This document shows positions 14,128 through 54,338 of a DNA stretch of 64,000 bases, piece after piece (positions within the stretch are counted from its first letter, which is position 1; every line of letters starts with the position of its first letter). Source of the DNA: Candidatus Latescibacterota bacterium (GTDB taxonomy: Bacteria; Krumholzibacteriota; Krumholzibacteriia; WVZY01; JAKEHA01); the NCBI GenBank assembly GCA_963707635.1, contig OY970173.1:960001-1024000 (forward strand), read 5' to 3'. The translations under genes and the position numbers were made by a program. Below the pieces are notes generated by a model that was not told the origin of the DNA, ran no database searches, and saw only the letters and a program-made list of their open reading frames with translations.

Positions 14128-14221
14128 GCAACCTTGTGCACTCCCTCGGGAGACAATCCGCAGTCGCGCATACCAACGTTGTGCGCGGGAGGACGTCGAC
14201 CGAGGGAGTGCACAAGGTTGC
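14128..14221 (+). repeat. Structured intergenic repeat family A, copy 1
   Basis: Perfect 22-bp inverted repeat enclosing CAATCCGCAGTCGCGCA-TACCAACGTTG-TGCGCGGGAGGACG. Confidence 0.85.
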
Positions 14222-14236
14222 CCACGCCGAGGTGCT

Positions 14237-15556
14237 ATGCTAAAACTCAACCAACTCACGCATCGTTCCTACATCATCGACAACGTCACCGTCGTCGATC
14301 CGAAGAAGAGTACGAGCTACCCGGGCCACGTCGTGGTAGTCGAGGGCAAGATCGAAGGCGTCGAGCGCGGGCGTGCGAAAGAGGCGTCGCTGCCGATCTA
14401 CGACGGGGAGGGACTCCACCTCGCACCCGGCTTCGTCGACATCCACGTCCACCTGCGCGAGCCTGGCGCCGAATACAAGGAAACCATCGCCACCGGCACC
14501 GCGGCCGCCGTCGCGGGCGGGGTCACGTCGGTGGCGTGCATGCCCAACACCAACCCGGCCATCGACGACCGCAGCGTGGTCGAGTTCATTTTGAAACAGG
14601 CCCGGAGCGTCGGACTCGCGAAGGTGTATCCCATCGCGGCGGCGACGATGGGACGCAAGGGCGAGATCCTCTCCGAATATTATGAGCTGGTCGGGGCGGG
14701 TGCGGTCGCGGTGACCGACGACGGCGCGCCGGTGTCGACCGCCGACATGGCGCGGCGCGTGATGGAGTACTCCGCTCCGCTGGGGATTCCATTCATCGAG
14801 CACTGCGAGGACATGACGGCCACCGGCGAAGGCGTCATGCACGAAGGCTTCTATTCCACCAAGCTCGGGCTCAAGGGCATCCCCGCGTTCAGCGAGGAAG
14901 TCTGCCTCTCGCGCGACCTCCTCATCCTGAGTTCGGTGCGGGGGGCCCGCTACCACGCCGCCCACATGTCGACGCGCGGATCGGTCGACCTGATCCGGCG
15001 CGCGAAGGATGCCGGATTGTCGGTGACGGCGGAAACGGCGCCGCACTACCTGTGCCTCACCGACGGCGACCTGGAGACGTACAACACCAACTTCAAGATC
15101 AGCCCGCCGCTTCGCGGCGAGGCGGATCGCGACGCCATGATCGAGGCGCTCAAGGACGGGACCATCGATTGCATCGCGTCCGACCACGCGCCGCACGCGG
15201 CCCACGAGAAGCAGGTCGAATTCAACGCGGCGCCCAACGGATCGGTCGGGCTCGAGACCCTGTTCCCGCTGGTGATGACGCACCTGGTGCGCCCCGGACA
15301 CTTCACACTCCCGCAGGCCCTCGGCCTCATCACCCACCGCCCGGCCGAGTGCCTGCGCATCCCGGGCGGGACGCTCGTGCGCGGCGCGGCGGCGGATCTC
15401 GTGCTCTTCGACCCGGAGGAGGCGTGGACCGTCCGCCCCGAGGGTCTCCATTCCAAGTCCAAGAACTCCGCGTTCCTCGGCCGCACCGTGTACGGGCGCG
15501 TGCGGCACACGCTCGTCGACGGGGTGAACGTGAGCGCGACGCTGATCGGCGCGTAG
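14237..15556 (+). CDS. pyrC: Dihydroorotase (type I)
   Basis: PGFVDIHVHLREPG, CMPNTNP, ETAPHYL, ASDHAPH. Confidence 0.95.
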   Translation: MLKLNQLTHRSYIIDNVTVVDPKKSTSYPGHVVVVEGKIEGVERGRAKEASLPIYDGEGLHLAPGFVDIHVHLREPGAEYKETIATGTAAAVAGGVTSVACMPNTNPAIDDRSVVEFILKQARSVGLAKVYPIAAATMGRKGEILSEYYELVGAGAVAVTDDGAPVSTADMARRVMEYSAPLGIPFIEHCEDMTATGEGVMHEGFYSTKLGLKGIPAFSEEVCLSRDLLILSSVRGARYHAAHMSTRGSVDLIRRAKDAGLSVTAETAPHYLCLTDGDLETYNTNFKISPPLRGEADRDAMIEALKDGTIDCIASDHAPHAAHEKQVEFNAAPNGSVGLETLFPLVMTHLVRPGHFTLPQALGLITHRPAECLRIPGGTLVRGAAADLVLFDPEEAWTVRPEGLHSKSKNSAFLGRTVYGRVRHTLVDGVNVSATLIGA

Positions 15557-15557
15557 C

Positions 15558-17156
15558 ATGGACTGGCGGCGGGCATTCCGGTGGACAACGGTCGCGGGGA
15601 TGGCGGGGGCGCTCGCGCTCACGGGCTGCGCGTACTTCAACACCCTCTACAACGCCAAGGAGAAGTACGACGGAGCGGAAAAAGCGAGCAAGTCGCGCGA
15701 GGCGGCTGAGCAGCGCGCCTCCGGCGGACAGGCGGGCAACACGGGTTCGACCGTCAATGCCCAGGCGGCACAATACGAATCCGTCATCGAGAAATGCACG
15801 AACGTGATCGCGCGCTATCCCGACAGCCGCCACGTCGACGACGCGATGCTCCTGATCGCGAAGTCGCTCTATAGGCTCGAGCGCTACGACGAAGCCGCCG
15901 CCGCGCTGGATTCGCTCGAAACCCGTTATCCGAAGACGAATCTCCTCGCGGACGCCCGTTTCCTCAAAGGCAAGTCGCTCGAAGCGGCGGAGCACTACGA
16001 CGTGGCGGCCACCGTGCTGTCGGATTTCGTCGATCGCCATCGCAAGCACCACGATCGTCCGGAAGCGCTCTATCTCCTGTGCATGTGCCAGATGCAACTC
16101 GGCTTGAGCGACAATGCGGTGGCGACGCTGCACCGTCTGGAGAAGGATCACAGCCGCTCGAACTATCGATTCAAGGCGCAGACAGACATGGCGGAAATCC
16201 TGGCCGACAAGGAGCTCTACGACCAGAGCCTGGCGGTCTACCGCAGCTTGAGCGAGGCGCGCATTCCCGCGAACGTTCGCTTCGACGTGTGGGTGGGTAT
16301 GGCGGGCGTTCAGGTGGAAGTGGGGGATTACCCGGGCGCGCTCGCGACCGTCGCCCGGTTGAAGACGCTGAAGATCACTGTCGAACAGGAACCCGTTGTG
16401 CTGCTATTGAGCGCGCGCGCGAATGCCGGCGCCGGCAACACCGAGCAAGCGATGCGCGAGTACAAGGACATCGCGAAGCGGTTCGCGCGCGGCACCTACG
16501 GCGCGGAGGCGAACTTCCGCCTGGGCGAGATGAGCGAGGCGACGGACAGCCTCGTGGCTGCGCAGCGGTACTATCAGGAAGTGCCCAATGCGTACTCCGG
16601 CTCCGAGTTCGCGGAAGAGGCCATCCGGCGCAGTTCCGACATCGGGCGCGTGCTCCTGATCCAGCAGACCTCCGGCGACGACAGCCCGGAGGCGGTGGCG
16701 CTCCGGACCTTTGCGATGGCGGAAGTGCAGCTCTTCCAGTTCAACAACACCGAGAAGGCAATCCCCAACTACGAGAAGATCGTCAACGAATTCGGGGAGA
16801 GCGAGTACGCGCCCAAGGCCGTGTACGCGCTGGGCTACATCTACGGCGTCATCCTCGCCGACTCGGTGAAGGCGAGAGAGTGGTACGAAGTGCTGCGCAC
16901 GCGCTATCCGGACAGCCAGCAGGCGCTGCTCGCGTACGGGTTCTACAAGGGCGCGTCGCCGCCGCCGCCGCTCTCCGACATGGCGCGCTTCGCGAAGCCG
17001 AAGGCGAGCCCGCCGCCCGCGGTGCCCGCCACGCACCCCGTCGGGGCGCCGCCGGGCATCCACCCACCGGCGCCTCCGCCGGCGCCGGTGCTGCCGGATT
17101 CGCTCCACGACCCCGAGGACCTGCTCCAACCCGCGCCGAAGGACTCATCGGGATGA
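15558..17156 (+). CDS. TPR-repeat lipoprotein (BamD/YfiO-like) with Pro-rich tail
   Basis: Lipobox LTGC then AYFNTLYNA; repeated YPDS/YPKT TPR turns; Pro-rich C-terminus. Confidence 0.8.
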   Translation: MDWRRAFRWTTVAGMAGALALTGCAYFNTLYNAKEKYDGAEKASKSREAAEQRASGGQAGNTGSTVNAQAAQYESVIEKCTNVIARYPDSRHVDDAMLLIAKSLYRLERYDEAAAALDSLETRYPKTNLLADARFLKGKSLEAAEHYDVAATVLSDFVDRHRKHHDRPEALYLLCMCQMQLGLSDNAVATLHRLEKDHSRSNYRFKAQTDMAEILADKELYDQSLAVYRSLSEARIPANVRFDVWVGMAGVQVEVGDYPGALATVARLKTLKITVEQEPVVLLLSARANAGAGNTEQAMREYKDIAKRFARGTYGAEANFRLGEMSEATDSLVAAQRYYQEVPNAYSGSEFAEEAIRRSSDIGRVLLIQQTSGDDSPEAVALRTFAMAEVQLFQFNNTEKAIPNYEKIVNEFGESEYAPKAVYALGYIYGVILADSVKAREWYEVLRTRYPDSQQALLAYGFYKGASPPPPLSDMARFAKPKASPPPAVPATHPVGAPPGIHPPAPPPAPVLPDSLHDPEDLLQPAPKDSSG

Positions 17157-18007
17157 GCGCGCACCAACACGCGGCGGGAAGCGCCTACTCGTTCACGCCT
17201 TCGAACGCGCACGAGCACACCGGCGCCGTGCTGGCCAATGTTTCCTTGAGCCGCCGGTACTTTCTCCTGCGAATCGCACGACCCGCGCATTTCGTCGAGC
17301 CCGCCGCGGGTCAATTCGTGCACGTCGCCGTCCCGCCCGTCGACGGGGACGGGCGGTTCTTTCTCCGGCGGCCGTTCTCGCTCCACGACTGCACGCGGGA
17401 TTCCCTCGAGCTGGTCATCGTCGAAGTCGGGCCCGGCTCGCAGGCTCTGCGGCGTCTCTCACCCGGCAGCCACCTCTGCTTCTATGGCCCGCTCGGGACC
17501 CCCTACCCGCTGCTGCCGGGCAAGCGCGTGCTCGCGATCGGCGGGGGAGTGGGGCTCGCGCCGCTCTATTACTATGGATTCCGCGCGCCCGGCCGGATCG
17601 GCGATGGCTACCGGCTGCTCTATGGCGCGCGTACGAAGGAAGACTTGTTTCTCGAGCACGTGCCGCTCGAGCAAGGCGGCGTTCTGCTGTCGACCGACGA
17701 CGGCAGTTACGGGTTCAAAGGCAACGTCGTCCAGCTCGCGTCCCGCGAGCTGGACCGGAGCCCCGCCGACGCGATCTTCTCGTGCGGTCCCACTGTAATG
17801 ATGAAAGCGGCGCAGCGACTCGCGGACGAGCGCGGACTCCCGCACTACGCGTCGCTCGAGAACCGCATGGGCTGCGCGCTCGGCGCGTGCCGCTCGTGCG
17901 TCGTGCCGACCCGGCTCGACGGCGCGAGCCCGTATCGGACCGTGTGCCACGACGGCCCCGTGTTCGACGGGAGCGTGCTGGTGTGGGACGAGCTGCCGGT
18001 GCCGTGA
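17153..18007 (+). CDS. pyrK: Dihydroorotate dehydrogenase electron transfer subunit
   Basis: LRRPFS, GGGVGLAP, CGPTVMM, 2Fe-2S motif MGCALGACRSC..VCHDGPVF. Confidence 0.92.
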   Translation: MSAHQHAAGSAYSFTPSNAHEHTGAVLANVSLSRRYFLLRIARPAHFVEPAAGQFVHVAVPPVDGDGRFFLRRPFSLHDCTRDSLELVIVEVGPGSQALRRLSPGSHLCFYGPLGTPYPLLPGKRVLAIGGGVGLAPLYYYGFRAPGRIGDGYRLLYGARTKEDLFLEHVPLEQGGVLLSTDDGSYGFKGNVVQLASRELDRSPADAIFSCGPTVMMKAAQRLADERGLPHYASLENRMGCALGACRSCVVPTRLDGASPYRTVCHDGPVFDGSVLVWDELPVP

Positions 18008-18018
18008 GGCGAGTGAGA

Positions 18019-18951
18019 ATGGCGCGCGCACACGATATCAGCGTTCAGATCGGACCGGTTCGGTTCAAGAACCCGGTCTTCATCGCGTCGGGGATCTGCG
18101 GCTACGCCGAAGAGTACTCGCCGCTGGTGAACCTTTCGCGCCTGGGCGGAGTGGTGACGAAGACCATCACCATGCTCCCGCGCCAGGGCAACCTGCCGCC
18201 GCGCATCCACGAGCTGCCGCACGGCATGCTCAATTCGATCGGCCTCGAGAACGTGGGTCTCGACCTCTATCTAACGGAGAAACTCCCGCAGCTGAATCAG
18301 CGCCCCGACGTCGGGGTGATGGTGAGCGTCGCCGCCGAAACCGAAGCCGAGTTCATCCGCCTCGCGGAGGCGTTCGCCGCGCGCGAGGGTTACGCCGGCC
18401 TGGAACTCAATCTCTCCTGCCCCAACGTCGCCGGCGAGGCGCTGGACCAGGGGCGCAACCCCCAGCTCGTCGAGCGCATCACGCGCATCGTCAAGGATCG
18501 CATTCCAAAGAAATCACTGTGGGTGAAAGTCACGCCCAACATCACCGACGTCGGCCTCGTCGCGCGCGCGGCGGAGCAGGGCGGCGCCGACGCGGTCGCC
18601 GCCATCAACACGCTGGTCGGAATCGACTTCGATCTGGAGACCGGCAAGCCCGTGTTCGCGCGCGGCAGCGCGGGTTACTCCGGTCCGGCCATTCTCCCCA
18701 TCGCGCTGCAGAAAGTGTGGGAGTGCGCGAAGGCGGTCTCGATCCCAATCGTCGGCATCGGCGGCATCATGACCATCGATGATGCGCGCAAGTTCTTCCT
18801 CGCCGGCGCGACCGCGATCCAGGTGGGGACGGCGCTCTACGCGGATCCGGGCCTGCCGGAGCGGATCATCGACGCGTTGGAAGCGCACCCGGAGTGGATC
18901 ACGGCGCGAGCGCGGCAGGCGTCGCCGCGGTCCGACGCCGCTCCGGCTTGA
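18019..18951 (+). CDS. pyrD: Dihydroorotate dehydrogenase family 1B catalytic subunit
   Basis: KNPVFIASG, MLNSIGLEN, LELNLSCPNV, INTL, IVGIGGI. Confidence 0.95.
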   Translation: MARAHDISVQIGPVRFKNPVFIASGICGYAEEYSPLVNLSRLGGVVTKTITMLPRQGNLPPRIHELPHGMLNSIGLENVGLDLYLTEKLPQLNQRPDVGVMVSVAAETEAEFIRLAEAFAAREGYAGLELNLSCPNVAGEALDQGRNPQLVERITRIVKDRIPKKSLWVKVTPNITDVGLVARAAEQGGADAVAAINTLVGIDFDLETGKPVFARGSAGYSGPAILPIALQKVWECAKAVSIPIVGIGGIMTIDDARKFFLAGATAIQVGTALYADPGLPERIIDALEAHPEWITARARQASPRSDAAPA

Positions 18952-19040
18952 CTCCATGTCATTCCGGCGGTTAGACTGCCTCGATCTCTCCGACCCGAAC
19001 TCCCCACAAAAGGAGTGTTTCGAATGACAGGGAGAAACCC

Positions 19041-20546
19041 ATGAGCGGCGGTCCTGCCCGATCTGAATCGGCCCCGGTTCCGGAGTTCACGCAGGTTCTC
19101 GGCCATCCGCGTCCGCTGTGGATGCTGTTCATGACCGAGTTCTGGGAGCGCTTCGCGTTCTACGGCATGCGCTGGGCGCTGACGCTCTACATCGTCGCGC
19201 AGTTCCACGGCGGCGATGCCTCGGGCGAGGCGCCGGCCAGCCGGATCTACGGCGCCTATCTCGCGCTGGTCTATGCGACGGCGATCTTCGGCGGCTACGT
19301 GGCCGACCGCATCATCGGCTATCAGCGCTCGATTCTGCTCGGCGCGGTGATCATGGCGACGGGCCTGTTCATGATCACGGTGCCCAACGAGCAGATCTTC
19401 AAGCTGGGCCTGGCCACCATCATCGCCGGCAACGGCCTCTTCAAGCCGAACATCTCGACCATGGTCGGCAAGCTCTACGGGGTCGGCGATCCGCGTCGCG
19501 ACTCGGGCTTCACCATCTTCTACATGGGGATCAACGCGGGCGCGTTCATCGCGCCGATCCTGACCGGGTGGCTCGCCGGCCGTGTGTTCGGCAGCGAGGA
19601 CATGCCGACCTACAAGGTGGTGTTCTTCACCACCGGCATCGGCATGTTGATCAGCCTGGTGTGGTTCTGGATCGGACGCCGCCAGCTCGGCACCGTCGGC
19701 CGGCCGCAGGAAGGCGGCGCCCAAAACCGCGCGCGCGTGCTGTACGTGGGACTCTGCGCGCTGGTCGCGATCCCGGTGATCTTCTTCCTGCTCACCATGG
19801 ACGCCGGCATACTGGCGTGGGTGCTGGGCGCCTTGTTCATCGGCCTGTGCGCCATGATCATGATCGAGGGCGTCCGCGAGGGAGCGGTGGCGCGCGACCG
19901 CGCGATCGCGATGCTCATCATCTTCGTCTTCAACATCATGTTCTGGATGTTCTTCGAGCAGGCCGGCAGCTCGTTCAACTTCCTCGCCGAGAAGATCGTC
20001 AATCGCGACTTCGGCGGCTGGATCTTCCCGGTCGCCTGGTTCCAGTCGATCAACCCGATCGGCATCCTCGCGCTCGCGCCGGTATTCGCCTGGCTGTGGG
20101 TCAAGCTGGGCAAGCGTAAATCCTTCGATACCGCGCAAGTTCGGCCTCGGCCTCACTGCCAACGGGCTCGCCTTCCTGCTGCTGATGTTCTCGCTGTCGA
20201 AGCTGGTGAGCGCGACGGGCATGATCCCGTTCTGGACGCTTGTTCACGGTGTATCGTGATTCAGACGGTGGGCGAGCTGTGCCTGTCGCCGATCGGACTG
20301 TCGATGGTGACCAAGCTCGCGCCGGTGCGTCTGGTCGGCCTCGGCATGGGGGGCTGGTTCCTGTCCACGGGGATCGGCAACAACCTGTCGGGTATCTTCG
20401 CCAGCGGTGTCAGCGGCGAAGGCGGCATGACCACGGCATCGGCGTTGTCCGGATACACGTTCGGCTTCTGGGCCCTGGTCAGCGCCGGCGCGGTGCTGCT
20501 CCTGATCGCACCGCTGATCCAGAGACTGATGCACGGCGTGAAGTAA
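19041..20546 (+). CDS. POT/PTR-family oligopeptide:H+ symporter, with an internal out-of-frame segment at about 20118-20255
   Basis: EFWERFAFYGMR (ExxERFxYY-like), GNGLFKPNIS, FYMGINAG, GELCLSPIGLS. Confidence 0.9.
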   Translation: MSGGPARSESAPVPEFTQVLGHPRPLWMLFMTEFWERFAFYGMRWALTLYIVAQFHGGDASGEAPASRIYGAYLALVYATAIFGGYVADRIIGYQRSILLGAVIMATGLFMITVPNEQIFKLGLATIIAGNGLFKPNISTMVGKLYGVGDPRRDSGFTIFYMGINAGAFIAPILTGWLAGRVFGSEDMPTYKVVFFTTGIGMLISLVWFWIGRRQLGTVGRPQEGGAQNRARVLYVGLCALVAIPVIFFLLTMDAGILAWVLGALFIGLCAMIMIEGVREGAVARDRAIAMLIIFVFNIMFWMFFEQAGSSFNFLAEKIVNRDFGGWIFPVAWFQSINPIGILALAPVFAWLWVKLGKRKSFDTAQVRPRPHCQRARLPAADVLAVEAGERDGHDPVLDACSRCIVIQTVGELCLSPIGLSMVTKLAPVRLVGLGMGGWFLSTGIGNNLSGIFASGVSGEGGMTTASALSGYTFGFWALVSAGAVLLLIAPLIQRLMHGVK

Positions 20547-20583
20547 TGCCCGGACGAAGGCGGTCGCGCGAGGTAGCGATGAG

Positions 20584-21288
20584 ATGACGACCCCGCGCGA
20601 CCGCCTTATCGTTGCCCTCGACGTCGATTCTCACGCCGCCGCGTCCGCGCTGGTCGCTTCGCTTTCGCCCCACGTCGGGTGGTTCAAGATCGGCAGCGTG
20701 CTCTTCACGCGCGAAGGACCGCGCGTGTGCGCGCTGGTCAAGGACTCCGGCGCGCGCCTCTTTCTCGACCTCAAGTACCACGACATTCCGAACACCGTCG
20801 CCGGCGCCGTGCGCAACGCACTCGCGCTGGGCGCCGACATGATCACCCTCCACGCCTCGGGCGGCCCCACCATGCTGCGCGCCGCCCGCGACGCCGCCAA
20901 CGAAACCGGCCACCGCGACGTGATACTGGTCGCGGTAACAGTGCTCACCCATCTGGACGACGAGGAAATGAATGCGGTCTTCGGGGTGCAGGAACCGGTG
21001 GAAACCCGGGTGCTGGCCCTCGCACGCGTGGCGCGCGACGGTGGAATGACCGGAGTGGTGGCCTCCGCCCAGGAGCTGCCCGCGATCAAGCGCACGATGG
21101 GGAAGGACTTCGTGGTGGTGACGCCGGGGATTCGCTTACCCGACGCCAAACAGGACGACCAGACCCGCGTGGTGACACCCGAGCAAGCGATCAAAGATGG
21201 AGCCGACTATATCGTCGTCGGGCGGCCAATCATCGCGGCGAAGGATCCCGCCGCCGCGGCGCTCGAGATCTTAAAGCGGATTCGATAG
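20584..21288 (+). CDS. pyrF: Orotidine-5'-phosphate decarboxylase
   Basis: LIVALD, FLDLKYHDIPNTV, VTPGIR, VVGRPI. Confidence 0.97.
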   Translation: MTTPRDRLIVALDVDSHAAASALVASLSPHVGWFKIGSVLFTREGPRVCALVKDSGARLFLDLKYHDIPNTVAGAVRNALALGADMITLHASGGPTMLRAARDAANETGHRDVILVAVTVLTHLDDEEMNAVFGVQEPVETRVLALARVARDGGMTGVVASAQELPAIKRTMGKDFVVVTPGIRLPDAKQDDQTRVVTPEQAIKDGADYIVVGRPIIAAKDPAAAALEILKRIR

Positions 21289-21384
21289 GTGGGCGGTTCG
21301 CAGTCCCCGTGGCGCCAATCCGCAGTCGCGCATTTCAACAGAATGCGCGGGAGGACGGCGCGCAGGGGACGGCGAACCGCCCAC
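21289..21384 (+). repeat. Structured intergenic repeat family A, copy 2 (between convergent genes)
   Basis: Stem GTGGGCGGTTCGC-A-GTCCCC / GGGGAC-G-GCGAACCGCCCAC enclosing CAATCCGCAGTCGCGCA-TTTCAACAGAA-TGCGCGGGAGGACG. Confidence 0.85.
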
Positions 21385-21392
21385 GTCGGCTA

Positions 21393-22766: not shown

Positions 22767-22886
22767 GATTTTCCTCCTGGCGCACGGCCAGCCTAGCACG
22801 TGGCCGCGTGATACGTAAGCAACGGTCCGGGTGTGACGCCATATTCCGCGCTCGGGGCATCCCGCGATCATGTACAATTATTGCAG

Positions 22887-25567: not shown

Positions 25568-25570
25568 CGG

Positions 25571-25707
25571 ATGCAGGTCCTGTGTCGACAGCCCGAGGCG
25601 GCTCGTTTCGTCCGCGCCTTCGCACTAGACTCAGCGCCGGGGCGCCGTCGGCGCGACCCGCTAGTGCCCGGCAAGAGGACCCGCGAAGCTGTAGGGCATG
25701 GATTTGC
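25571..25707. repeat. Structured intergenic repeat family B, copy 1
   Basis: Colinear similarity to 49422-49573 (ATGCRGGTCCTGT..ACAGCCC..GGCTCG..CGCGCCTYCGCACT..GGGCGCC..ACCCGC..CCGG..ACCCGC..GCTGYAGGG). Confidence 0.6.
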
Positions 25708-25724
25708 CCCGATCGCCAAAGGCT

Positions 25725-25753
25725 TTGACGGCTGCGGAGACTTGCCGTAGGCT
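25725..25753 (+). promoter_or_regulatory. Putative sigma70 promoter of the nucleotide-sugar operon
   Basis: TTGACG-17 nt-TAGGCT. Confidence 0.5.
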
Positions 25754-25789
25754 CACAGGCCGAAGTCTTTCCCTGGCCGACGTGAAAGG

Positions 25790-26752: not shown

Positions 26753-26761
26753 GCGATTCAT

Positions 26762-29470: not shown

Positions 29471-29486
29471 CGCCCGGTTGTCCACC

Positions 29487-30524
29487 ATGCCGTTCAAGTC
29501 CATCCTCGTCACCGGCGGAGCCGGCTTCATCGGCTCGAACTTCGTGCGCATGATCGCGAACGAACAGCCGGGGTGCGCGGTCACGGTCCTGGACGCGCTC
29601 ACCTACGCCGGCAACCTGGAGAACATCGCCGAGCTGGTCGACGCGAAGCGCGTGCGGTTCATTCGCGGGAACATCTGCGACCCCGCCGCGGTGCGCGCCG
29701 CGATGGACGGCTGCGAAGTGGTGTTCAATTTCGCGGCCGAGACGCACGTGGACCGCTCGATCGAAGAGGCGGCGTCGTTCATCGAGACCGATATCCAGGG
29801 GACGTACACGCTCCTGAATCACGCGCGCGAGCTCCAGGTGCGGCGCTACGTACAGATCTCGACCGACGAGGTGTACGGGTCGAGCGCGGGCGAAGGGTTC
29901 AGCGAGGAATCGCCGCTGCGGCCGGGCAACCCGTACAGCGCCAGCAAGTGCGGCGGCGACCTCATGTGCCTCGCCTACGCCAACACCTACCGGCTGCCGA
30001 TCGTGATCACGCGCAGCTCGAACAACTTCGGGCCCTATCAGCACGTGGAGAAGTTCATCCCGCTCTTTACCACCAACGCCATGGAGGGGAAGGACCTTCC
30101 GCTCTACGGGGACGGGATGCACCACCGCGACTGGATCTTCGTGGACGACAACTGCCGCGCGATCGCGCTGGTGGCGGAGAAGGGCAACGACGGCGAGGTC
30201 TACAATATCGCGGTGGGCAACAGCCAGCCCAACCTGCGGGTCGCGGAGTTGATCCTCCAGCACGTCGGCGACACGAAGTCCCGCATCGTCTTCATCGAAG
30301 ACCGCAAGGGCCACGACCGCATGTACAAGCTCGCCGCCGCGAAGGTGCGCGCGCTGGGCTGGGCGCCGGCCACCGATTTCGCGGTGGGGATGGAAAAGAC
30401 GGTGCGCTGGTACGTCGAGAACCGCGGCTGGTGGGAGCGGGTGAAGTCGGGCGCGTTTCGCGACTACTACGAGAAGCACTACGGCGCGCGGCTGGCGAAA
30501 GGGAAGGCGAAGGGTAGTCCGTGA
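29487..30524 (+). CDS. rfbB: dTDP-glucose 4,6-dehydratase
   Basis: TGGAGFIGSNF, DALTYAGN, FAAETHVDRSI, STDEVYG, PYSASK. Confidence 0.95.
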   Translation: MPFKSILVTGGAGFIGSNFVRMIANEQPGCAVTVLDALTYAGNLENIAELVDAKRVRFIRGNICDPAAVRAAMDGCEVVFNFAAETHVDRSIEEAASFIETDIQGTYTLLNHARELQVRRYVQISTDEVYGSSAGEGFSEESPLRPGNPYSASKCGGDLMCLAYANTYRLPIVITRSSNNFGPYQHVEKFIPLFTTNAMEGKDLPLYGDGMHHRDWIFVDDNCRAIALVAEKGNDGEVYNIAVGNSQPNLRVAELILQHVGDTKSRIVFIEDRKGHDRMYKLAAAKVRALGWAPATDFAVGMEKTVRWYVENRGWWERVKSGAFRDYYEKHYGARLAKGKAKGSP

Positions 30525-30614
30525 GGCAGCGTGGCTCACTCTCCCGCTCAGGTCCTCGCGCGCGATGGTTGAAAGCGCGCTGCGGATTCGCGTGCGAGTG
30601 AACCACGCTGCCTC
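30523..30614 (-). repeat. Structured intergenic repeat family A, copy 3
   Basis: On the minus strand, a 19-bp stem GAGGCAGCGTGGTTCACTC encloses GAATCCGCAG-CGCGC-TTTCAACCATC-GCGCG-CGAGGAC. Confidence 0.8.
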
Positions 30615-30625
30615 GCACCGTTGAG

Positions 30626-36684: not shown

Positions 36685-36701
36685 CGGGTAGCCGGATTTC
36701 C

Positions 36702-37952: not shown

Positions 37953-38056
37953 TCGGCCTCGTCCGGACGCGTATACTTCAGAGGCATCCGGCATTCCGCC
38001 GCGCGCCGCGCCCGTGTCCGCGACCCGACAGCCACGCTGCTCTATTACAAAGAAAA

Positions 38057-39601: not shown

Positions 39602-39614
39602 CGGGGCGTCGGCC

Positions 39615-42029: not shown

Positions 42030-42120
42030 CTTGAGTGGGAGCCGGCGCCTCGTGCCCGGAATGCTGTTGTGGCCCTCCGGTGGCACCGCTATAGTGGGAT
42101 CAATTCCCTGACGAAGGACG

Positions 42121-45318: not shown

Positions 45319-45336
45319 TTCTGCCCCGCTGACGGC

Positions 45337-48300: not shown

Positions 48301-48927
48301 ACCGTCAACTCCGCGGTCAACTTCGTGCTGATGGGCATGAACGTGTCGATCAACCACGTGATCGACCCCTACACCTGGGACATCAACAGCACCAGCGCGA
48401 CCTCGAGCCTGCGCATCGGCGGAACCCACCCGTTCGGGAGGGCGTCGCACGTGGACACGCGCGAGCTCAACCAGGTCGCGGCGGCCGATACCTCCCACGC
48501 GAAGCGGAAAGACTTCGCCTCCGGCGGCGTCGAGTTCATCCAGACCGGAGACGTCGCGGCCGACCGGCCCGCGGGCGACATCCAGCTCGAGGAGGGGCGT
48601 CTCCCGTGGAGCATGTCGCTGGGGTTGAGCTACTCGAAGTCGTCGTCGGGGCAGTCCAGCTCCACCCTGCGCATGGGCTGGCAGGTCAAGCTGACGGACA
48701 ACTGGCATATTGACTATTCGACGATCTACGACGTCGAGTCGCGCGAGCAGTCGGGCCAGTACTTCAGCATCGGGCGCGACCTGCACTGCTGGGAGATGAG
48801 CTTTTCCCGCCAACTGCTTGGCGACGAGTGGCAGTACTACTTCCGCATCTCGCTCAAGGCCCATTCCGACCTCTACGGCGAATCGGGCAGCCGCGGCGTC
48901 GGGGGCGGTCTTATCGGTCAATTCTAG
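45337..48927 (+). CDS. lptD: LptD-like LPS assembly protein with extended N-terminal OstA/LptA-like jellyroll
   Basis: Signal peptide; repeated OstA-like strands; YSTCDLKEPHY, RRSGVLRP, C-terminal RDLHCWEM barrel motif. Confidence 0.8.
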   Translation: MPMSSPRHRPQRFAAALAVYLVLAAGAGARFGAAQTGPAEPPAPDYYDITGDFTSLKKINGETVLELLQNVRIVHGDVTVNADRAVSFTERRLTQLTGHVRVQQGTFVMTGEEGEYRRDEDLAVLERRVHIVDEGWTVDCDEVRYSRRTGQAWLIGHVVGRDSTSTLRADRVLYERTIGRAEAFGSVELSNREERVVVRGRHGVYRRDRGEGLIDRDPTLVSGPDDDEPVTVVSDTMRVYPDSSRAIAYYRVKIIKGNTVTQCDSAMLYDDQKRVELYGHPLARQDRTTMKGERMIAHYDEKEINRIDILGAAVIRDERRDSLVVGRDNWVAGDTISLYLHDNGLDSLHVAGHASSEYYPSTPNKVESNFISGNRMFFRLGRDEIEFVDVSGKAGGTYRYLNLGANQTADSLRAVGDSTLAYVPFAGRAERVEYSAERIQYHARTRDLVLEKSARLTYHDNELTGDAITYHSALQILDATGSPTLTDAGQKLYGKRMDYDLESETGLVTSGSTQYEQGYYHGENMAKVGENELKVWNSWYSTCDLKEPHYHFAARTMKVYPDDKVFSGPIWLHIGKTPIFALPFMANSISHGRRSGVLRPDFEFGITSDRSRFIRNVGYYWATNDYTDFTFVADFNEDKSWRLHITNQYKLRYLFDGAVQYSYFRDLTDQSTEWTFDGVHRQTLGEKASLNAGLRFVSSDDAPQSVNTIDDVNRYIDRSIRSNVSLRKSWDTAGFSASASRTQNLNIVDPDAIKVQMTLPDVTLSIPSRNLYFGSDSSAPKGLWESILKNTRYSPALSGSRQNTEKLYEDSEAINGRAGLSLSSPQRIKFVTLAPGLNTSLVSSRYDLQRRAYDRIVTSGGVPDTVPVAALDSTSTITQFTWNVGVSANSNFYGTFYPRIGRLRGIRHTLTPSVAYSLTPAQHGRPRAQGVGLNLRNAFDLKVLDTSKAAREDTTDTEGEKVRKLSSVLFWNLSASYRPDLPLDQAWSTVNSAVNFVLMGMNVSINHVIDPYTWDINSTSATSSLRIGGTHPFGRASHVDTRELNQVAAADTSHAKRKDFASGGVEFIQTGDVAADRPAGDIQLEEGRLPWSMSLGLSYSKSSSGQSSSTLRMGWQVKLTDNWHIDYSTIYDVESREQSGQYFSIGRDLHCWEMSFSRQLLGDEWQYYFRISLKAHSDLYGESGSRGVGGGLIGQF

Positions 48928-49000
48928 GTCGGGGCGGGAGCGCCCCGGCGGATGTCCCCCGAAATCTCGCGTCGCCACGCCGAGAATGCTTGAATATGTA

Positions 49001-49030
49001 TTGACACGTTTTTTTTGAGGTCGATAAAGT
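49001..49030 (+). promoter_or_regulatory. Putative sigma70 promoter of HU
   Basis: TTGACA-18 nt-TAAAGT, followed by a strong AGGAGG RBS. Confidence 0.6.
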
Positions 49031-49058
49031 GCGCATGAGAGTGGGAAGGAGGTGAACA

Positions 49059-49352
49059 ATGAACAAGACTGAATTGATCGAGCGCATCGCGCAGAAGACC
49101 GGGCTCACGATGAAGGACGCCAAGAACGTCATCGACGTGATTTTCAGCACCCAGGCCAAGAGCGGCATCATCGCGGGCGAGCTCAAGTCGGGTCGCAAGG
49201 TACAGATCACCGGGTTCGGAACGTTCCAGGTCCGCAAGCGCAAGAAGCGGGAGGGACGGAATCCACAGACAGGTGCACCCATCGAGATTCCAGCGACCAA
49301 GTTCCCCGCGTTTTCCGCGGGCCGCGCCCTAAAGGACCGCGTCAAGGTGTAG
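49059..49352 (+). CDS. hup: HU DNA-binding protein
   Basis: MNKTELI, GFGTF, REGRNPQTG, PAFSAG. Confidence 0.96.
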   Translation: MNKTELIERIAQKTGLTMKDAKNVIDVIFSTQAKSGIIAGELKSGRKVQITGFGTFQVRKRKKREGRNPQTGAPIEIPATKFPAFSAGRALKDRVKV

Positions 49353-49374
49353 TACCCTGGCGTGGCTCTGTCGT

Positions 49375-49414
49375 CGGCAGGCGAAGCGTGCACCGCTTCG
49401 CCTGTCGCTTTTTT
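49375..49414 (+). terminator. Intrinsic terminator after hup
   Basis: CGGCAGGCGAAGCG-TGCAC-CGCTTCGCCTGTCG followed by CTTTTTT. Confidence 0.85.
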
Positions 49415-49421
49415 GTCCGCT

Positions 49422-49573
49422 ATGCGGGTCCTGTCGGCCAACAGCCCACGGCGGGCTCGCCATTCGCGCCTCCGCACTCGGTGGCTCGCCCTTGTGGGCG
49501 CCCGTTGGCCGCCACCCGCGTCGTTCCGGATCGGCGCCACCCGCTCGTGCTGCAGGGAATTCCGGGTCCTGCC
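49422..49573. repeat. Structured intergenic repeat family B, copy 2
   Basis: Colinear with 25571-25707; internal stems CGGCCAAC/GTTGGCCG and GCCCAC/GTGGGC. Confidence 0.6.
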
Positions 49574-49645
49574 ACCCGCTCCAGTACAACCGCGCGCCGG
49601 TCAACGCCTTGTGGCGTGGCGACGGCACGTGCTATATTCCTCGAC

Positions 49646-51052
49646 ATGCGTTTCCTCGTGGCAAGTTTGGCCGCGTGGTCGGTGCTCGTGTCGCCCGGCG
49701 CCGCCCAGGCGCCGCAGACCGCGCCCTTCGACGCGACCGTGCGCCTGGTGTACGAAAGCGACACGCGTGCGTACTACCGGCCCTGCGGCTGACACAACAA
49801 TGCCGCTGGCGGACTCGCCCGGCGGGCGGGTCTCTTGAAGACGTTGCGGGCGGAGTCGGCGCCGGTACTGGTGTGCACGGCGGGGGATTTCTACGGGACC
49901 GCCGACGTGTACAACGAGTCGAAGTCGCATTTCGTGGCGCGGATGCTGGGCGAACTCGGATACGACGCGATCGGCGTCGGCGAGATGGATCTGAATTTCG
50001 GGCTGGCCTCGCTGGTCGAAGACGCCCGCCTCTACCGCCTGCCGATCGTGTGCGCGAACCTCCAGGCCAAGAACGATTCCTTGCGCGTGCGCACGGGCGG
50101 GCCCGAGTCCACCGCCGCTGACCGATTGGGCAGCGCGTTCCCGCCGTACCGGATCGTGACCAAGGCGGGCGCGCGCTTCGGGTTCCTGGGGCTGCTGTCG
50201 CCGGCGACCAAGACGCACGCGCGGGAAGCGACGGTGGAGTCGCTGACGTACGTGCTGGGCGACCCGCTCGAGATCGCGAAGACGGCGGTGGCCGAGCTGC
50301 GGCCGCAGTGCGACGTGCTCGTCGTGCTGGGCCACATGGACGAGGAGGAGGCGCGCAAGCTGGCTGAAAAGGTCCCCGGGATCGACCTGGTAGTGCTGGG
50401 ACACGACCCGCAGGGGAAGTCGCTCGGAGAGTTGGTAACGGTAGGCGACACCCACCTGCTGCGCGCGACCGCGCAGGGGCAGTACATCGGCCAGCTGGAC
50501 ATGCGGCTGGGCGACGATCACCACATCGCCGAGGTGTGGAACCGGCTGCACGTGCTGCAGGCCTCGTACCCGGACGACCCCGACATGGCGAAGAAGCTGG
50601 ACCAGTTCGACGTGGACAACCGGATGATTCAGAAGGAGCTCTTCGCCAAGGAACAGATGAAGGCCAGCGCCGACGACCCCTTCGCCGCGCGCTATCTCGG
50701 GGTGGGTGCCTGCCAGTCGTGCCACCTCGAGCAGTTCAACGTGTACACCGGTACCCGCCACGCGCATGCCTACGCCACGCTGGCGTCAGAGTTCGTCCAG
50801 CGCGACACCAACTGCGTGGGCTGCCACGTGACCGGCTACGGCGACGCGGGGGGATTCCAGGGCGTGCGGATGCGTGGCTCGATGGTCGACCTGGTCGACG
50901 TTCAGTGCGAGGCGTGCCACGGCCCCGGGGCCGACCACGCGCGCGACGGCTCGTACCGCCAGAAGGCGCGGGAAAGCTGCGTGCGCTGCCACACCCCCAA
51001 CGACGACCCCGATTTCAATTTTGACGAAGACTGGCCCAAGATCGCCCACTAG
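49646..51052 (+). CDS. Exported UshA-like (metallophosphoesterase-fold) selenoprotein fused to a tetraheme c-type cytochrome; in-frame TGA 49790-49792 read as Sec49
   Basis: The two listed ORFs (ending 49792 and starting 49835) share a frame and are separated only by TGA: signal peptide..YESDTRAYYRPCG-TGA-HNNAAGGLARRA..TAGDF; four CxxCH motifs. Confidence 0.85.
49802..49823 (+). promoter_or_regulatory. Candidate bacterial SECIS hairpin
   Basis: GCCG-CT-GGCG-[GACT]-CGCC-CGGC; the apical loop starts with G after a 19-nt spacer from the TGA. Confidence 0.7.
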
Positions 51053-51821
51053 CCTCGCGCTCGCGGCGGCTGTCTTGTCGGTGCTTCCGGTCGGGTCGGC
51101 CCGCGCCGCCGACGCGGAGTCGCTGCTGCTGCCGGGTATCGACATTCGCTCGATCGACTTCGCGGTCGGAACCTGGTGCCGCTACCGGGTCGTCGACGAA
51201 GCCATGGGCCAGGCGGACACGAGCGAGGTGATGCTGGCGATCGTCGGGCGGGAGTCCACACCCGACGGTCCCGCGTACTGGCTCGAGATCGAGACGAGTC
51301 CATTGCGCGGCTCCGACGACGACCGTGACTTCTCGCGCGTGCTGGTGGACGATCGGGTGCGCGCGATGGCGCCGGGCGACTCGGTCTATCATTTCGTGCG
51401 GCGGTTCTACGTCAAGAAGGGCAACGGGCCGGTCGAGGCGGGTGATCCCCGGGACCTCAAGCGGCTAACGGTCGTGTCTCCCGCCTCCAGGGGGGATTGG
51501 AAAACCACTCCCGGCCGCCGGATCGACACGACCGCGGGAGCCATCGATTGCGAACTCCGCCAGTTCGAGACCGACGAATCGCGCGACGTCCCCGCAGGGC
51601 GGATCGTGATCCGGCAGCGCCGGGTCGATCGAGTCCAGGTGTGGGTCTCACTCGTGATCCCCGTGTTTCATCTCGCCCGCTGCGAGATCGAGCGCCTGCG
51701 CGAGTCGAAGGCCATCCCGCCGGTGCGGGGCGTGCCGGATTCCGGGCCGAGAACCTCACGAACCACCAGCGAGATCGTGTCCTACGGCACCGGCGCGAAA
51801 GCGCGCATTGCCGCGCCGTGA
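51021..51821 (+). CDS. Exported hypothetical protein overlapping the selenoprotein gene end (start uncertain, TTG 51021)
   Basis: Signal-like SLALAAAVLSVLPVGSARA-A; beta-rich body (VGTWCRYRV, YWLEIE). Confidence 0.7.
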   Translation: MTKTGPRSPTSLALAAAVLSVLPVGSARAADAESLLLPGIDIRSIDFAVGTWCRYRVVDEAMGQADTSEVMLAIVGRESTPDGPAYWLEIETSPLRGSDDDRDFSRVLVDDRVRAMAPGDSVYHFVRRFYVKKGNGPVEAGDPRDLKRLTVVSPASRGDWKTTPGRRIDTTAGAIDCELRQFETDESRDVPAGRIVIRQRRVDRVQVWVSLVIPVFHLARCEIERLRESKAIPPVRGVPDSGPRTSRTTSEIVSYGTGAKARIAAP

Positions 51822-51830
51822 TGCGATGAT

Positions 51831-51860
51831 TTGATTTTGGCCGCGGGGCTGTGCTATAAG
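51831..51860 (+). promoter_or_regulatory. Putative promoter of the CBS/CGL pair
   Basis: TTGATT-18 nt-TATAAG with an extended -10 TG. Confidence 0.5.
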
Positions 51861-51959
51861 ATCGCACAGATTCGGGCCCGCAACCGATTTCACCTGACTT
51901 CCACGGTTACCAACTGATTCAAGGAGGAGGGCGCCCGCCTGCCGCGCCCGGGACTACCC

Positions 51960-52958
51960 ATGAGCGATCGACTGCGACGCGTCAAGTACGCGGAGAGTGT
52001 TCTCGGAACCATCGGCAACACGCCCCTGGTCAGGCTCAACCGCGTCGCCGCCGACGTGAAGTGCACGGTGCTCGCGAAGCTCGAGTACTTCAATCCCGGC
52101 GGCAGCGTCAAGGATCGCATCGGAATCGTCATGATCGAAGACGAGATCCGCAAGGGGACCCTCAAGCCGGGCGGCACCATCGTCGAATGCACGTCGGGCA
52201 ACACCGGTCTCGGACTCGCGCTCGCGGCCTCGATCCTGGGGTACAAGTGCGTGTTCACCATGCCCGACAAGGTCCCGGTCGAAAAAGAGTACATGCTCAA
52301 GGCGTACGGGGCGGAGGTGATCCGCTGCCCGACCAACGTCGCGCCGGACTCGCCCGAGAGTTACTACTCGGTGGCGAAACGTCTCGCGCGCGAGCGCCCC
52401 AACGCGGTACTCGGCAACCAGTATCAGAATCCGATGAACCCGGAGGCGCACTACCGGTCGACGGGTCCCGAGATCTGGCGCGACACCGGCGGCGAGGTCG
52501 ACTACCTGGTGGCGGGCATGGGGACCGGCGGGACGATCAGCGGGACCGGCCGCTACCTGAAGGAAATGAAGCCGGCGGTGAAAGTAATCGGCGCCGACCC
52601 CGAGGGCAGTATCCTCACCCATTATTTCTATCACAAGGAATTGATCGAGGCTCGCCAGTACCTGGTCGATGGAATCGGCGAAGACTTCATCCCGGGGACC
52701 TGTCAGTTCCAGTACGTCGACGAGATGATGCTGGTGGGCGATCGCGAGTCGATCCTCATGACGAGGCGGCTCGCGCGCGAGGAAGGAATGCTGGTGGGCA
52801 GCTCCTCCGGCACGGCCGTCGTGGCCGCGCTGCGGGTGGCGCGCGACCTCGACGCCGACAAGATCGTGGTGGTCCTGATACCGGACACCGGGGAGCGTTA
52901 CTTGAGCAAGGTTCATTCGGAAGCGTGGCTCGCCCAGCATGGTCTGGGCGGCGCGTAG
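51960..52958 (+). CDS. Cystathionine beta-synthase / cysteine synthase family (PLP)
   Basis: IGNTPLV, NPGGSVKDRIG, TSGNTGLG, GMGTGGT, GIGEDFIP, PDTGERYLSK. Confidence 0.93.
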   Translation: MSDRLRRVKYAESVLGTIGNTPLVRLNRVAADVKCTVLAKLEYFNPGGSVKDRIGIVMIEDEIRKGTLKPGGTIVECTSGNTGLGLALAASILGYKCVFTMPDKVPVEKEYMLKAYGAEVIRCPTNVAPDSPESYYSVAKRLARERPNAVLGNQYQNPMNPEAHYRSTGPEIWRDTGGEVDYLVAGMGTGGTISGTGRYLKEMKPAVKVIGADPEGSILTHYFYHKELIEARQYLVDGIGEDFIPGTCQFQYVDEMMLVGDRESILMTRRLAREEGMLVGSSSGTAVVAALRVARDLDADKIVVVLIPDTGERYLSKVHSEAWLAQHGLGGA

Positions 52959-52972
52959 ACAGGCGGAGGCAT

Positions 52973-54106
52973 ATGGGATTCTCGACCGATTGCGTGCACG
53001 CGGGGCAGTCCCCGGACGAAAAAACCGGCGCCGTCATCACGCCGATCTTCCAGACCTCGACCTACCGGCAGGATGGAATCGGCAAGCACCGAGGCTACGA
53101 ATACGCCCGCACCGCCAACCCGACGCGCGAGGCCCTGGAACGCAACGTCGCCGCGCTGGAGAAGGGGAAGCACGGAATCGCCTATTCCTCGGGCATGGCC
53201 GCGATCGACACCGTGCTCCGGCTGTTCGGACCGGGGGACGAGATTGTCGTGACCCATAACGTGTACGGCGGCACGTACCGCCTCTTCGAGATGGTGTTGA
53301 AGGGGTACGGCCTCTCCTTCAAGTTCATCGACACCGCCGACCTCGCGGCCGTGGAGCGCGCGCTTTCGGACAAGACCCGCCTGGTCTTCATCGAGTCGCC
53401 CACCAACCCGGTGCTCCGCGTCACCGACATCCGCGCGGTGTCGGAGATGGCGCACGCGCGCGGGGCGCGGGTGTGCGTGGACAACACCTTCATGAGTCCC
53501 TACCTGCAGAATCCGCTGGCCCTGGGCGCCGACCTGGTCACGCACAGCACGACCAAGTTCCTGAACGGACACAGCGACATGGTGGGCGGCATCGTCGTGT
53601 TGAACGACGACGTTACCGCGCAGAAGCTCCGTTTCCTCCAGAACGCGGTGGGCGCGGTTCCCGGGCCGATGGATTGCTGGCTGGCGCTGCGCGGGACCAA
53701 GACGCTCGCCGTGCGCATGAAGCAGCACGAAGCGAACGCCCGGGTCCTCGCCGCGTTCCTGGCGGGACACCCAAACCTGGAGAAGGTCAACTACCCGGGG
53801 CTGCCCGACCACCCGCACCACGAGCTCGCCAGGCGACAGGCGCGCGGCTTCGGCGCGATCATTTCCTTCGACCTCGAGTCGCGCGAGCGCGCCGACAAAG
53901 TGCTGCGCGCGGTCAAGCTCTTCACCCTCGCCGAGAGTCTCGGCGGGGTGGAGAGTCTGATCAGCCATCCTGCCACCATGACGCACGGCAGCGTTCCCGA
54001 CGCCGACAAGGCGAAGCTGGGCGTGACTCCCGGGCTGGTGCGGATCTCGGTCGGCATCGAAGACGTCGAAGATCTCCAGGCCGATCTCGAGCAAGCGCTT
54101 CGTTAA
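52973..54106 (+). CDS. Cystathionine gamma-lyase/synthase (Cys/Met metabolism PLP enzyme)
   Basis: PIFQTSTY, YARTANPT, ESPTNP, VDNTF, HSTTKFLNGHSD, AESLGGVESL. Confidence 0.95.
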   Translation: MGFSTDCVHAGQSPDEKTGAVITPIFQTSTYRQDGIGKHRGYEYARTANPTREALERNVAALEKGKHGIAYSSGMAAIDTVLRLFGPGDEIVVTHNVYGGTYRLFEMVLKGYGLSFKFIDTADLAAVERALSDKTRLVFIESPTNPVLRVTDIRAVSEMAHARGARVCVDNTFMSPYLQNPLALGADLVTHSTTKFLNGHSDMVGGIVVLNDDVTAQKLRFLQNAVGAVPGPMDCWLALRGTKTLAVRMKQHEANARVLAAFLAGHPNLEKVNYPGLPDHPHHELARRQARGFGAIISFDLESRERADKVLRAVKLFTLAESLGGVESLISHPATMTHGSVPDADKAKLGVTPGLVRISVGIEDVEDLQADLEQALR

Positions 54107-54147
54107 CCATCTGCCGCGATCGGGCCGCTCATCGAGAAAGAGCGGTC

Positions 54148-54231
54148 GGTGTGCACTCCCTCTGCCGCCGTCCTCCCGCGCACAATGTTGATATGCGCGA
54201 CTGCGGATTGGCGTCCGAGGGAGTGCACACC
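54148..54231 (-). repeat. Structured intergenic repeat family A, copy 4
   Basis: On the minus strand, a 15-bp stem GGTGTGCACTCCCTC encloses CAATCCGCAGTCGCGCA-TATCAACATTG-TGCGCGGGAGGACG. Confidence 0.85.
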
Positions 54232-54245
54232 TTCCCCAAAAAGAA

Positions 54246-54338
54246 CGGGCGATATATCGGGCGAAGCGCGATTTCGCGAGTCGCGCATTCCAGCTTGTGC
54301 GCGCGAGCGCATGAGCGCGGAGTCCGATATATCGCCCG
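54246..54338 (+). repeat. Structured intergenic repeat family A, copy 5 (divergent)
   Basis: 17-bp stem CGGGCGATATATCGGGC/GTCCGATATATCGCCCG enclosing GAGTCGCGCA-TTCCAGCTTG-TGCGCGCGAG. Confidence 0.7.

What the first reader, a model, noticed from the sequence alone, without database searches (positions are those of the whole stretch)
14128..54338. Five-copy intergenic element with a conserved core and variable outer stems (family A)
Seen: copies at 14128-14221(+), 21289-21384(+), 30523-30614(-), 54148-54231(-) and a divergent one at 54246-54338(+). Each has a 15-22 bp outer stem whose sequence differs between copies (copies 1 and 4 are related) while pairing is kept. The core consensus is AATCCGCAG(T)CGCGC(A)-loop containing YCAAC-(T)GCGCG(G/C)GAGGAC. 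Copies occur in both orientations and always shortly after a stop codon. Inference: an undescribed REP-like or non-autonomous mobile element, or a protein-binding RNA/ssDNA motif. The TCAA-like loop recalls HUH (IS200/IS605/RAYT) cleavage motifs, but no such enzyme is in the window.
Basis: partly seen in the sequence, partly recalled or inferred. Interest (0 to 1): 0.72.

Follow-up and report, generated by a model that had tools for sequence, protein, structure and literature searches.

The report
One-strand hairpin repeat between bacterial genes
The five hairpins are copies of a ~94-base palindromic repeat found 74 times between genes of this bacterium and at filled-or-empty sites in its relatives; its pairing is kept on the repeat's own strand whichever way the genes run, so it likely acts as a single-stranded DNA hairpin, spread by an enzyme I could not find.

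Summary
Confirmed. The five hairpins belong to a dispersed family: 74 copies in this genome in four subfamilies, with matches in 28 of 150 genomes of the phylum sample. There is no Rfam match.

The core is a stem broken by tandem G·A mismatches and is near-identical across species. The outer stems are mostly private to each copy, yet paired.

The element is mobile on an evolutionary scale. The pyrB-pyrC site is empty in 22 of 22 other family genomes. Ribosomal-operon junctions are filled, empty or inverted across species.

Key test: G·T wobbles outnumber A·C 23:3 on the element's own strand even where that strand is antisense to the mRNA. Ordinary intergenic hairpins favour the mRNA strand 46:5. 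So the fold that is kept is not the mRNA's.

No GTAG foot, TA ends or target duplication was found. No RAYT/Y1, reverse transcriptase or IS110 was found in the genome.

Verdict: a new variant of the ERIC/YPAL/REP kind of repeat, enzyme unknown. The scan had already noted this family's doublets in this genome (e1-1450685) and similar designs in other lineages.

The parts
14128..14221 (+). Copy 1, subfamily A1; core 14155-14194; 22-bp outer stem; inserted at the pyrB-pyrC junction
   Evidence: site empty in 22 of 22 other family genomes, filled in metagenome contig L105 with two paired stem changes
21289..21384 (+). Copy 2, subfamily A1 with its own outer stem; core 21317-21356; convergent gap directly after the pyrF stop
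30523..30614 (-). Copy 3, subfamily A2; core 30552-30588; antisense to the two flanking + strand epimerase genes; overlaps the upstream stop by 2 nt
54148..54231 (-). Copy 4, subfamily A1; core 54170-54209; left member of the A1-B doublet
54246..54338 (+). Copy 5, subfamily B; right member of the head-to-head doublet (14-nt spacer)
13130..14110 (+). pyrB (aspartate carbamoyltransferase), host gene upstream of copy 1
   Evidence: Pfam OTCace
14237..15556 (+). pyrC (dihydroorotase), host gene downstream of copy 1
   Evidence: Pfam Amidohydro_1/DHOase
20584..21288 (+). pyrF (OMP decarboxylase), host gene ending at copy 2
   Evidence: Pfam OMPdecase
29478..30524 (+). NAD-dependent epimerase/dehydratase, host gene ending at copy 3
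   Evidence: Pfam
52973..54106 (+). Cys/Met PLP-dependent enzyme, host gene upstream of the doublet

Best explanation
It is a dispersed, non-coding palindromic repeat that is gained, lost and inverted between related genomes and keeps its pairing on its own strand, so it likely works as a single-stranded DNA hairpin whose G·A-mismatch core is likely read by a trans-acting protein not yet identified. Shown: copy number, filled/empty/inverted sites, covariation, the strand bias, and head-to-head doublets. Inferred: (1) whole elements or ~200-bp doublets are copied to new sites just after stop codons; (2) once fixed, the outer stem drifts with its locus and is kept paired by template switching between the arms plus selection on one strand; (3) the core is held by protein recognition and is sometimes overwritten in place by the genome's current core type (gene conversion); (4) inversion arises between the arms, or by local inverted duplication followed by loss of the old core. 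Any effect on mRNA stability would be a by-product.
For: 74 copies found by two methods. Both orientations in co-directional gaps, 20 sense: 27 antisense (p 0.38). G·T:A·C on the core strand is 49:12 overall, 23:3 in antisense copies, 14:2 in the antisense A2+C copies with independent stems, and 17:5 and 32:7 in the two replichore classes; 46:9 in 73 copies from relatives. Control hairpins give 46:5 on the mRNA strand. The core strand folds more stably in 71 of 74 copies as DNA. Covariation: 78.9% paired vs 62.2±0.6 shuffled, 0/500. Mobility. A1 and B copies share inner stems at unrelated loci. All 10 of 10 close pairs have one geometry. At rpsN-rpsH the stems track the locus in 7 of 7 genomes, and the core tracks the genome clearly in 2 of 7. 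E. coli TnpAREP reads a bulged ssDNA hairpin strand-specifically (PMC8266576, passages). Template switching perfects bacterial inverted repeats (PMC5941160, abstract).
Against: No mobilising enzyme was found. No target-site duplication or conserved target motif. No strain-level excision or inversion was seen, because no close, deep read set was available. The strand bias cannot tell ssDNA from an RNA made from the element's own strand. Core conversion is ambiguous in 5 of 7 genomes. Enrichment in convergent gaps (22/74 vs 105/1173) also fits a 3'-end RNA role. Long retention at rpsN-rpsH (11 of 16 genus genomes) suggests slow turnover, or some host benefit, at some sites.
Confidence: 0.58

Rival explanations
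1. An orphaned REP/REPIN family: spread by a RAYT (Y1 HUH) enzyme that these genomes have since lost or carry only transiently.
For: Doublets, REP-like gap distribution (PMC3733652 passages), bulged strand-specific hairpin. RAYT genes are patchy, with transfer and loss (PMC6006769 abstract).
Against: PF01797 in 0 of 17 genus genomes, 2 of 41 relatives and 0 of 5 further carriers. Neither hit locus holds a copy. GTAG/GTGG foot in 1 of 74. Young subfamilies A1 and B imply recent spread in a 96%-complete single-contig genome with no RAYT hit.
Confidence: 0.14
2. An RNA made from the element's own strand (a small RNA or an RNA intermediate of spread), independent of the neighbouring genes.
For: G·U wobble and tandem G·A pairs are equally RNA-like. 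The core strand folds better as RNA in 69 of 74 copies.
Against: No RVT_1 in the genome. No promoter-like site around copy 1 (one copy only). No conserved sequence at the element's ends or flanks. No Rfam family.
Confidence: 0.12
3. Only the ~55-nt core moves. It enters the loops of pre-existing host hairpins (YPAL-like targeting of dyad symmetry), which become the 'variable stems'.
For: Stems of 91 non-A1/B copies are near-unrelated between copies (8.1-8.3 of 20 vs 6.7 random). G005 has near-identical cores in unrelated stems and a genome-type core inside an orthologous stem. Some empty junctions hold short hairpins. YPAL targets dyad symmetry (PMC2229807).
Against: pyrB-pyrC has overlapping stop/start and no room for a hairpin in 14 of 22 empty genomes. 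A1 and B share stems across loci. By eye, hairpins at empty junctions do not resemble the stems at filled ones.
Confidence: 0.1
4. Primarily an mRNA element (3'-end stabiliser, terminator or processing site) selected in the transcripts of the flanking genes.
For: Position after stop codons, enrichment in convergent gaps and depletion in divergent gaps (5/74 vs 271/1173). ERIC and YPAL affect mRNA stability (PMC2229807).
Against: On the mRNA strand, antisense copies have G·U:A·C 3:23 against 46:5 in control hairpins (Fisher p 8e-12; copies are not fully independent). A U-tract follows only 2 of 64 units. Orientation flips at orthologous sites.
Confidence: 0.06

Closest known systems
ERIC/IRU/RU-1 (enterobacterial 127-bp repeat; PMC2229807, parts 1-2 of 3 read)
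   Same: Long single hairpin of similar size, intergenic. The E. coli aceF-lpd intergenic repeat (the label ERIC is recalled, the record does not annotate it) folds with two G·A-rich internal loops around a short stem and an apical hairpin, the same layout by eye.
   Different: ERIC has TA ends, target duplication and conserved terminal repeats. Here TA ends are 0 of 74, there is no TSD, and the ends are the variable part. Model R2 finds nothing in MG1655.
YPAL/RU-2 of Yersinia (PMC2229807)
   Same: No TA ends, internal inverted repeats, not AT-rich; targets next to dyad symmetry; filled and empty sites; no demonstrated transposase.
   Different: YPAL is ~168 bp with 3-26 bp TSDs; none was detected here. 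No Rfam family reached its gathering score in the window, and only miRNA models gave weak hits over three copies. YPAL sequences were not compared directly.
REP/BIME/REPIN with RAYT (TnpAREP) (PMC6006769 abstract, section 12 and part 1 of section 15; PMC8266576 passages; PMC3733652 passages)
   Same: Dispersed after stop codons, in unidirectional and convergent gaps; inverted dimers; bulged hairpin with one functional strand.
   Different: REPs are 20-40 bp with a GTAG/CGTC foot and a cognate flanked gene. This element is ~94 nt, has no foot and no RAYT found, and conserves the centre rather than the arms.
Rickettsia palindromic elements (RPE; PMC2229807)
   Same: 105-146 bp long stem-loops with no demonstrated transposase. 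A likeness of the central motif is recalled from memory and was not tested.
   Different: RPEs often insert in frame in genes. Here 71 of 74 copies do not overlap my predicted ORFs by more than 10 nt.

Membership tests
REP/REPIN-RAYT | GTAG/GTGG (or CGTC) tetranucleotide at the hairpin foot | tested here: not met
   1 of 74 for each motif
REP/REPIN-RAYT | Cognate Y1 HUH gene (PF01797) flanked by copies | tested here: not met
   0 in G000, 2 of 41 relatives, 0 of 5 other carriers; hit loci carry no copy
REP/REPIN-RAYT | Intergenic, downstream of genes, in unidirectional/convergent gaps, often as inverted dimers | tested here: met
REP/REPIN-RAYT | Strand-specific cleavage of the folded ssDNA by the enzyme | not testable with these tools
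   needs biochemistry; the strand bias is only indirect
ERIC/IRU (MITE) | TA termini and target-site duplication | tested here: not met
   TA at both ends 0 of 74; flanking direct repeats equal to shuffles
ERIC/IRU (MITE) | Conserved terminal inverted repeats | tested here: not met
   outer arms near-unrelated between copies
ERIC/IRU (MITE) | Sequence/structure homology to E. coli ERIC | tested here: not met
   R2: 0 hits in MG1655, none in L225 with filters off; only a layout likeness by eye
YPAL/RU-2 | 3-26 bp target-site duplication | tested here: inconclusive
   none above background, but most copies are old and no near-identical empty strain was available
YPAL/RU-2 | Sequence homology to YPAL | not tested
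   no YPAL sequence fetched; Rfam scans gave no bacterial family
Integron attC | Conserved terminal R boxes and cassette arrays next to an integrase | tested here: not met
   ends not conserved; copies sit singly between housekeeping genes; none in the three integrase loci
Intrinsic terminator | U-tract after the hairpin | tested here: not met
   2 of 64 units
Any Rfam family | Score at the gathering threshold | tested here: not met
   0 in the window; only sub-threshold miRNA models

The most novel reading that the evidence does not exclude
The element marks a class of 'core-conserved, arm-variable' bacterial repeats that spread with no transposase of their own: a host single-strand DNA enzyme recognises a G·A-mismatch hairpin, copies or swaps the core between sites, and rebuilds a fresh perfect stem at each locus. 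The same route could explain how ERIC-, YPAL- and RPE-type repeats, whose mobilisers are unproven, move.
Probability: 0.15. Interest if true: 0.8.

Novelty: new variant of a known kind. Interest (0 to 1): 0.45.

Why it matters
A 2007 review states that there was no experimental support for how ERIC, YPAL, RPE and similar repeats move (PMC2229807). This family gives a clean case. It has spread recently in a near-complete genome where no RAYT, RT or IS110 was found. Its functional strand can be read from wobble asymmetry, and it has a short, phylum-wide core that can serve as bait for the binding protein. The G·T versus A·C test also warns that perfect covariation and G·U pairs in such repeats do not by themselves show an mRNA function. 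If no enzyme turns up, it remains one more lineage-specific repeat family of modest interest.

Tried and rejected
Enzymes in the own genome. Not found: PF01797, RVT_1 (21), IS110 (22), PDDEXK_3 (82), 23S-IVP four-helix (83). The Y2_Tnp search is uninformative because its control rang nowhere. A RAYT motif regex and tblastn with two Y1 proteins found nothing significant.

GIY-YIG. The 84-aa gene is near-universal and low-copy in the order. It has no flanking hairpin, and 0 of 30 GIY-YIG loci hold a convincing copy (72, 86).

DUF222-HNH gene. It is flanked by two copies in G002, but only 1 of 30 such loci has copies by R1 or R2. It was not found with this query in element-rich G023, G026 and G027 (56). 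A divergent copy next to such a gene in L084 was seen by eye and missed by both models.

Flanking genes. None of 123 flanking proteins in G000 is a transposase or recombinase by Pfam; 14 have no family. A further 27 ORFs from relatives gave none either.

Target signals. No target-site duplication or conserved flank.

Wider searches. The strict core pattern gave 1 hit in genome contigs and 0 in viral contigs. A looser pattern gave 8 viral stretches, all weak under R2 (E 0.04 or worse). Plasmid blastn gave only chance-level hits or none.

Reads. No RNA holder was listed and no run held half of the words. Laying four low-share DNA runs was uninformative.

Literature. Searches for Krumholzibacteriota + repeat + palindrom, REP + gene conversion + concerted evolution + hairpin and sheared + hairpin + intergenic repeat/MITE (129) showed no description of this family; I saw listings only. 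The Chen and Shapiro CIR paper was not held, so CIR is known here only through the review. No supplements were read.
Full report
OBSERVATION. All five hairpins are present as described. The window lies in a 3.20-Mb single-contig genome, 66% GC and 96% complete. The phylum name Krumholzibacteriota comes only from earlier finding e1-1450685; I did not verify it. Rfam gives nothing at gathering score and only weak miRNA-hairpin hits over copies 3-5.

INVENTORY. Subfamily HMMs gave 76 hits, of which I dropped 2 short partials, leaving 74 copies: A1 23, B 20, C 19, A2 12, median 94 nt. Covariance model R2 returns 75 matches at 74 loci, one of them on both strands. With my own simple gene caller, 71 of 74 copies do not overlap an ORF by more than 10 nt. 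Copies are enriched in convergent gaps (22/74 vs 105 of 1173 gaps of at least 80 bp, p 1e-6) and depleted in divergent gaps (5/74 vs 271/1173, p 4e-4; doublet members counted singly). In co-directional gaps 20 copies are sense and 27 antisense. There is no replichore bias (32:42, p 0.30). Neighbours are unrelated housekeeping genes, including rpsJ-rplC, rpsN-rpsH and rpoA-rplQ. All 10 of 10 close pairs are B + A doublets with their 5' ends facing, spaced -1 to 14 nt. Copies 4 and 5 are one such pair.

ANATOMY. Read on one strand, the element is one long hairpin: a variable outer stem (median 16-19 Watson-Crick pairs), short conserved stems separated by G·A/A·G internal loops, a GC-rich 5-6 bp apical stem, and a variable AT-rich loop. 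The G·A pairing is my reading of the sequence from known tandem sheared pairs; it was not measured. The smallest piece shared by the distant copies is CC-GCA-GC on the 5' side facing GC-GA-GG on the 3' side. Subfamilies swap the middle stem in step (CC/GG, CAC/GTG, CGC/GCG, CCC/GGG). On 113 distinct copies, 27 named pairs are 78.9% paired against 62.2±0.6% in shuffles (0/500) and 33-58% when slid, with 631 double-sided changes. That alignment was fitted to a model from the same family, so it leans towards the structure. In 91 non-A1/B copies an arm scores 15.6/20 with its own partner, 8.1 with another copy's partner and 6.7 at random.

DISTRIBUTION. R1 matched 23 of 61 genomes, all within the own order. 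R2 matched 28 of 150 phylum genomes: 10/16 in the own family, 7/9 in the sister family, 5/33 and 5/60 in two families of other orders, and 0/31 in five others (only 27 candidates were scored per genome, so copy counts are floors). A 50-nt core is identical between this genome and G005, while loops are often genome-typical.

MOBILITY. At pyrB-pyrC (copy 1), 22 of 22 other family genomes have no copy and 14 have overlapping stop/start codons. A metagenome contig with 96.6% pyrB identity has the orthologous copy, with two changes on each arm that keep pairing. Neither arm comes from the flanking coding sequence. In the ribosomal cluster:
- rpsN-rpsH is filled in 11 of 16 genus genomes (9 antisense, 2 sense; G013 looks degenerate and was not called) and 0 of 5 outside the genus.
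- rpsJ-rplC is filled in 6 of 13 (3 each way).
- rpoA-rplQ is filled in 3 of 14, with G001 and G008 sharing a stem around opposite cores.
The two sense copies at rpsN-rpsH keep a coreless left arm of the old copy upstream, which fits local inverted duplication and loss of the old core (inference). At that junction the arms resemble orthologues more than own-genome copies in 7 of 7 testable genomes. The core resembles the own genome clearly in G005 (0.93 vs 0.52) and G015 (0.82 vs 0.66) and is ambiguous in the other 5. No TSD, GTAG/CGTC foot, TA ends or U-tract were found.

WHICH STRAND FOLDS. A G·T wobble on one strand is an A·C mismatch on the other, so their ratio shows the strand whose fold is kept. 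With scoring that treats both alike:
- The core strand has 49 G·T to 12 A·C overall; 23:3 where it is antisense to the mRNA, 8:3 where sense, 12:5 in convergent gaps.
- Antisense copies with independent stems (A2, C) give 14:2 (p 0.004). Per copy, 14 antisense copies lean G·T, 2 lean A·C and 11 tie.
- Both replichore classes agree (17:5, 32:7).
- In 93 control hairpins from element-free co-directional gaps the mRNA strand has 46:5.
- 73 copies from relatives give 46:9 on the core strand.
So the kept fold follows the element, not transcription or replication direction. This fits an ssDNA hairpin or an RNA from the element's own strand. A strand-linked mutation bias could contribute. No RNA data were available to decide.

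ENZYME. None was found; the searches are listed under Tried and rejected. The only suggestive case, a DUF222-HNH gene between two copies in G002, did not generalise (1 of 30 loci). Ordinary genes are also bracketed by two copies.

MECHANISM. I commit to a non-autonomous DNA repeat recognised as a folded single strand. Shown: copy number, turnover, inversion, covariation, strand bias and doublet geometry. Inferred: copying of whole elements or doublets, arm correction by template switching (precedent PMC5941160, abstract), in-place core conversion, and protein recognition of the mismatch core (precedent: the TnpAREP bulge requirement, PMC8266576, passages).

COMPARISON AND NOVELTY. It works like REP/BIME in placement and strand specificity, and like ERIC and YPAL in size and layout (PMC2229807 parts 1-2; PMC6006769 sections 12 and part of 15; PMC3733652, PMC2267715 and PMC10969869 passages). 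It fails the tested defining features of REP-RAYT and ERIC, and R2 does not detect the E. coli repeat. My searches showed no paper on this family. The scan's own notes already report its doublets in this genome and similar centre-conserved, arm-variable repeats in at least 8 other genomes (unchecked AI notes). The design therefore appears to be recurrent, not unique. Verdict: new variant of a known kind, interest 0.45.

Noticed in passing
L076:2202-3275 (G002); G000:C1:1260970-1262073 and 227718-228766: A DUF222-HNH protein family is scattered in up to 18 matches per genome across all 22 other family genomes. It looks like a mobile gene family of its own. One copy is bracketed by two of the hairpins.
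   Followed up: partly
L227, L228, L230/L231 (viral contigs), around position 2501: A repeated intergenic element in phage-tail-like regions carries the same minimal core motif but only a weak outer stem (R2 E about 0.1); two copies lie 1.1 kb apart in one contig.
   Followed up: partly
L225:1255-1385 (E. coli MG1655, aceF-lpd gap): The E. coli repeat (ERIC by recall) shows the same layout of G·A-rich internal loops; common ancestry of such cores is untested.
   Followed up: partly
L156, L160, L161, L163 (G003, G010, G014, G006 ribosomal clusters): Genomes lacking the element at rpsN-rpsH carry other short hairpins there, in G010, G014 and G006 a repeated 'TTCTCGCGCG...' type that recurs at other junctions; possibly a second repeat family.
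   Followed up: no
G000:C1:19560-19585 and about 1219466-1219500: Half-copies next to full copies (a B arm beside an A1; an A1 3' half beside a B) suggest decay of doublets.
   Followed up: partly
window:21393-22724 (-), 54855-55193 (+), 55356-55991 (+): Predicted genes near copies 2 and 5 have no Pfam family.
   Followed up: no
G000:C1:1667450-1667544: The genome encodes a tRNA-Sec.
   Followed up: no
L078:1028-1236 (G005): Two copies in direct tandem 111 nt apart, unlike the head-to-head doublets of G000.
   Followed up: no
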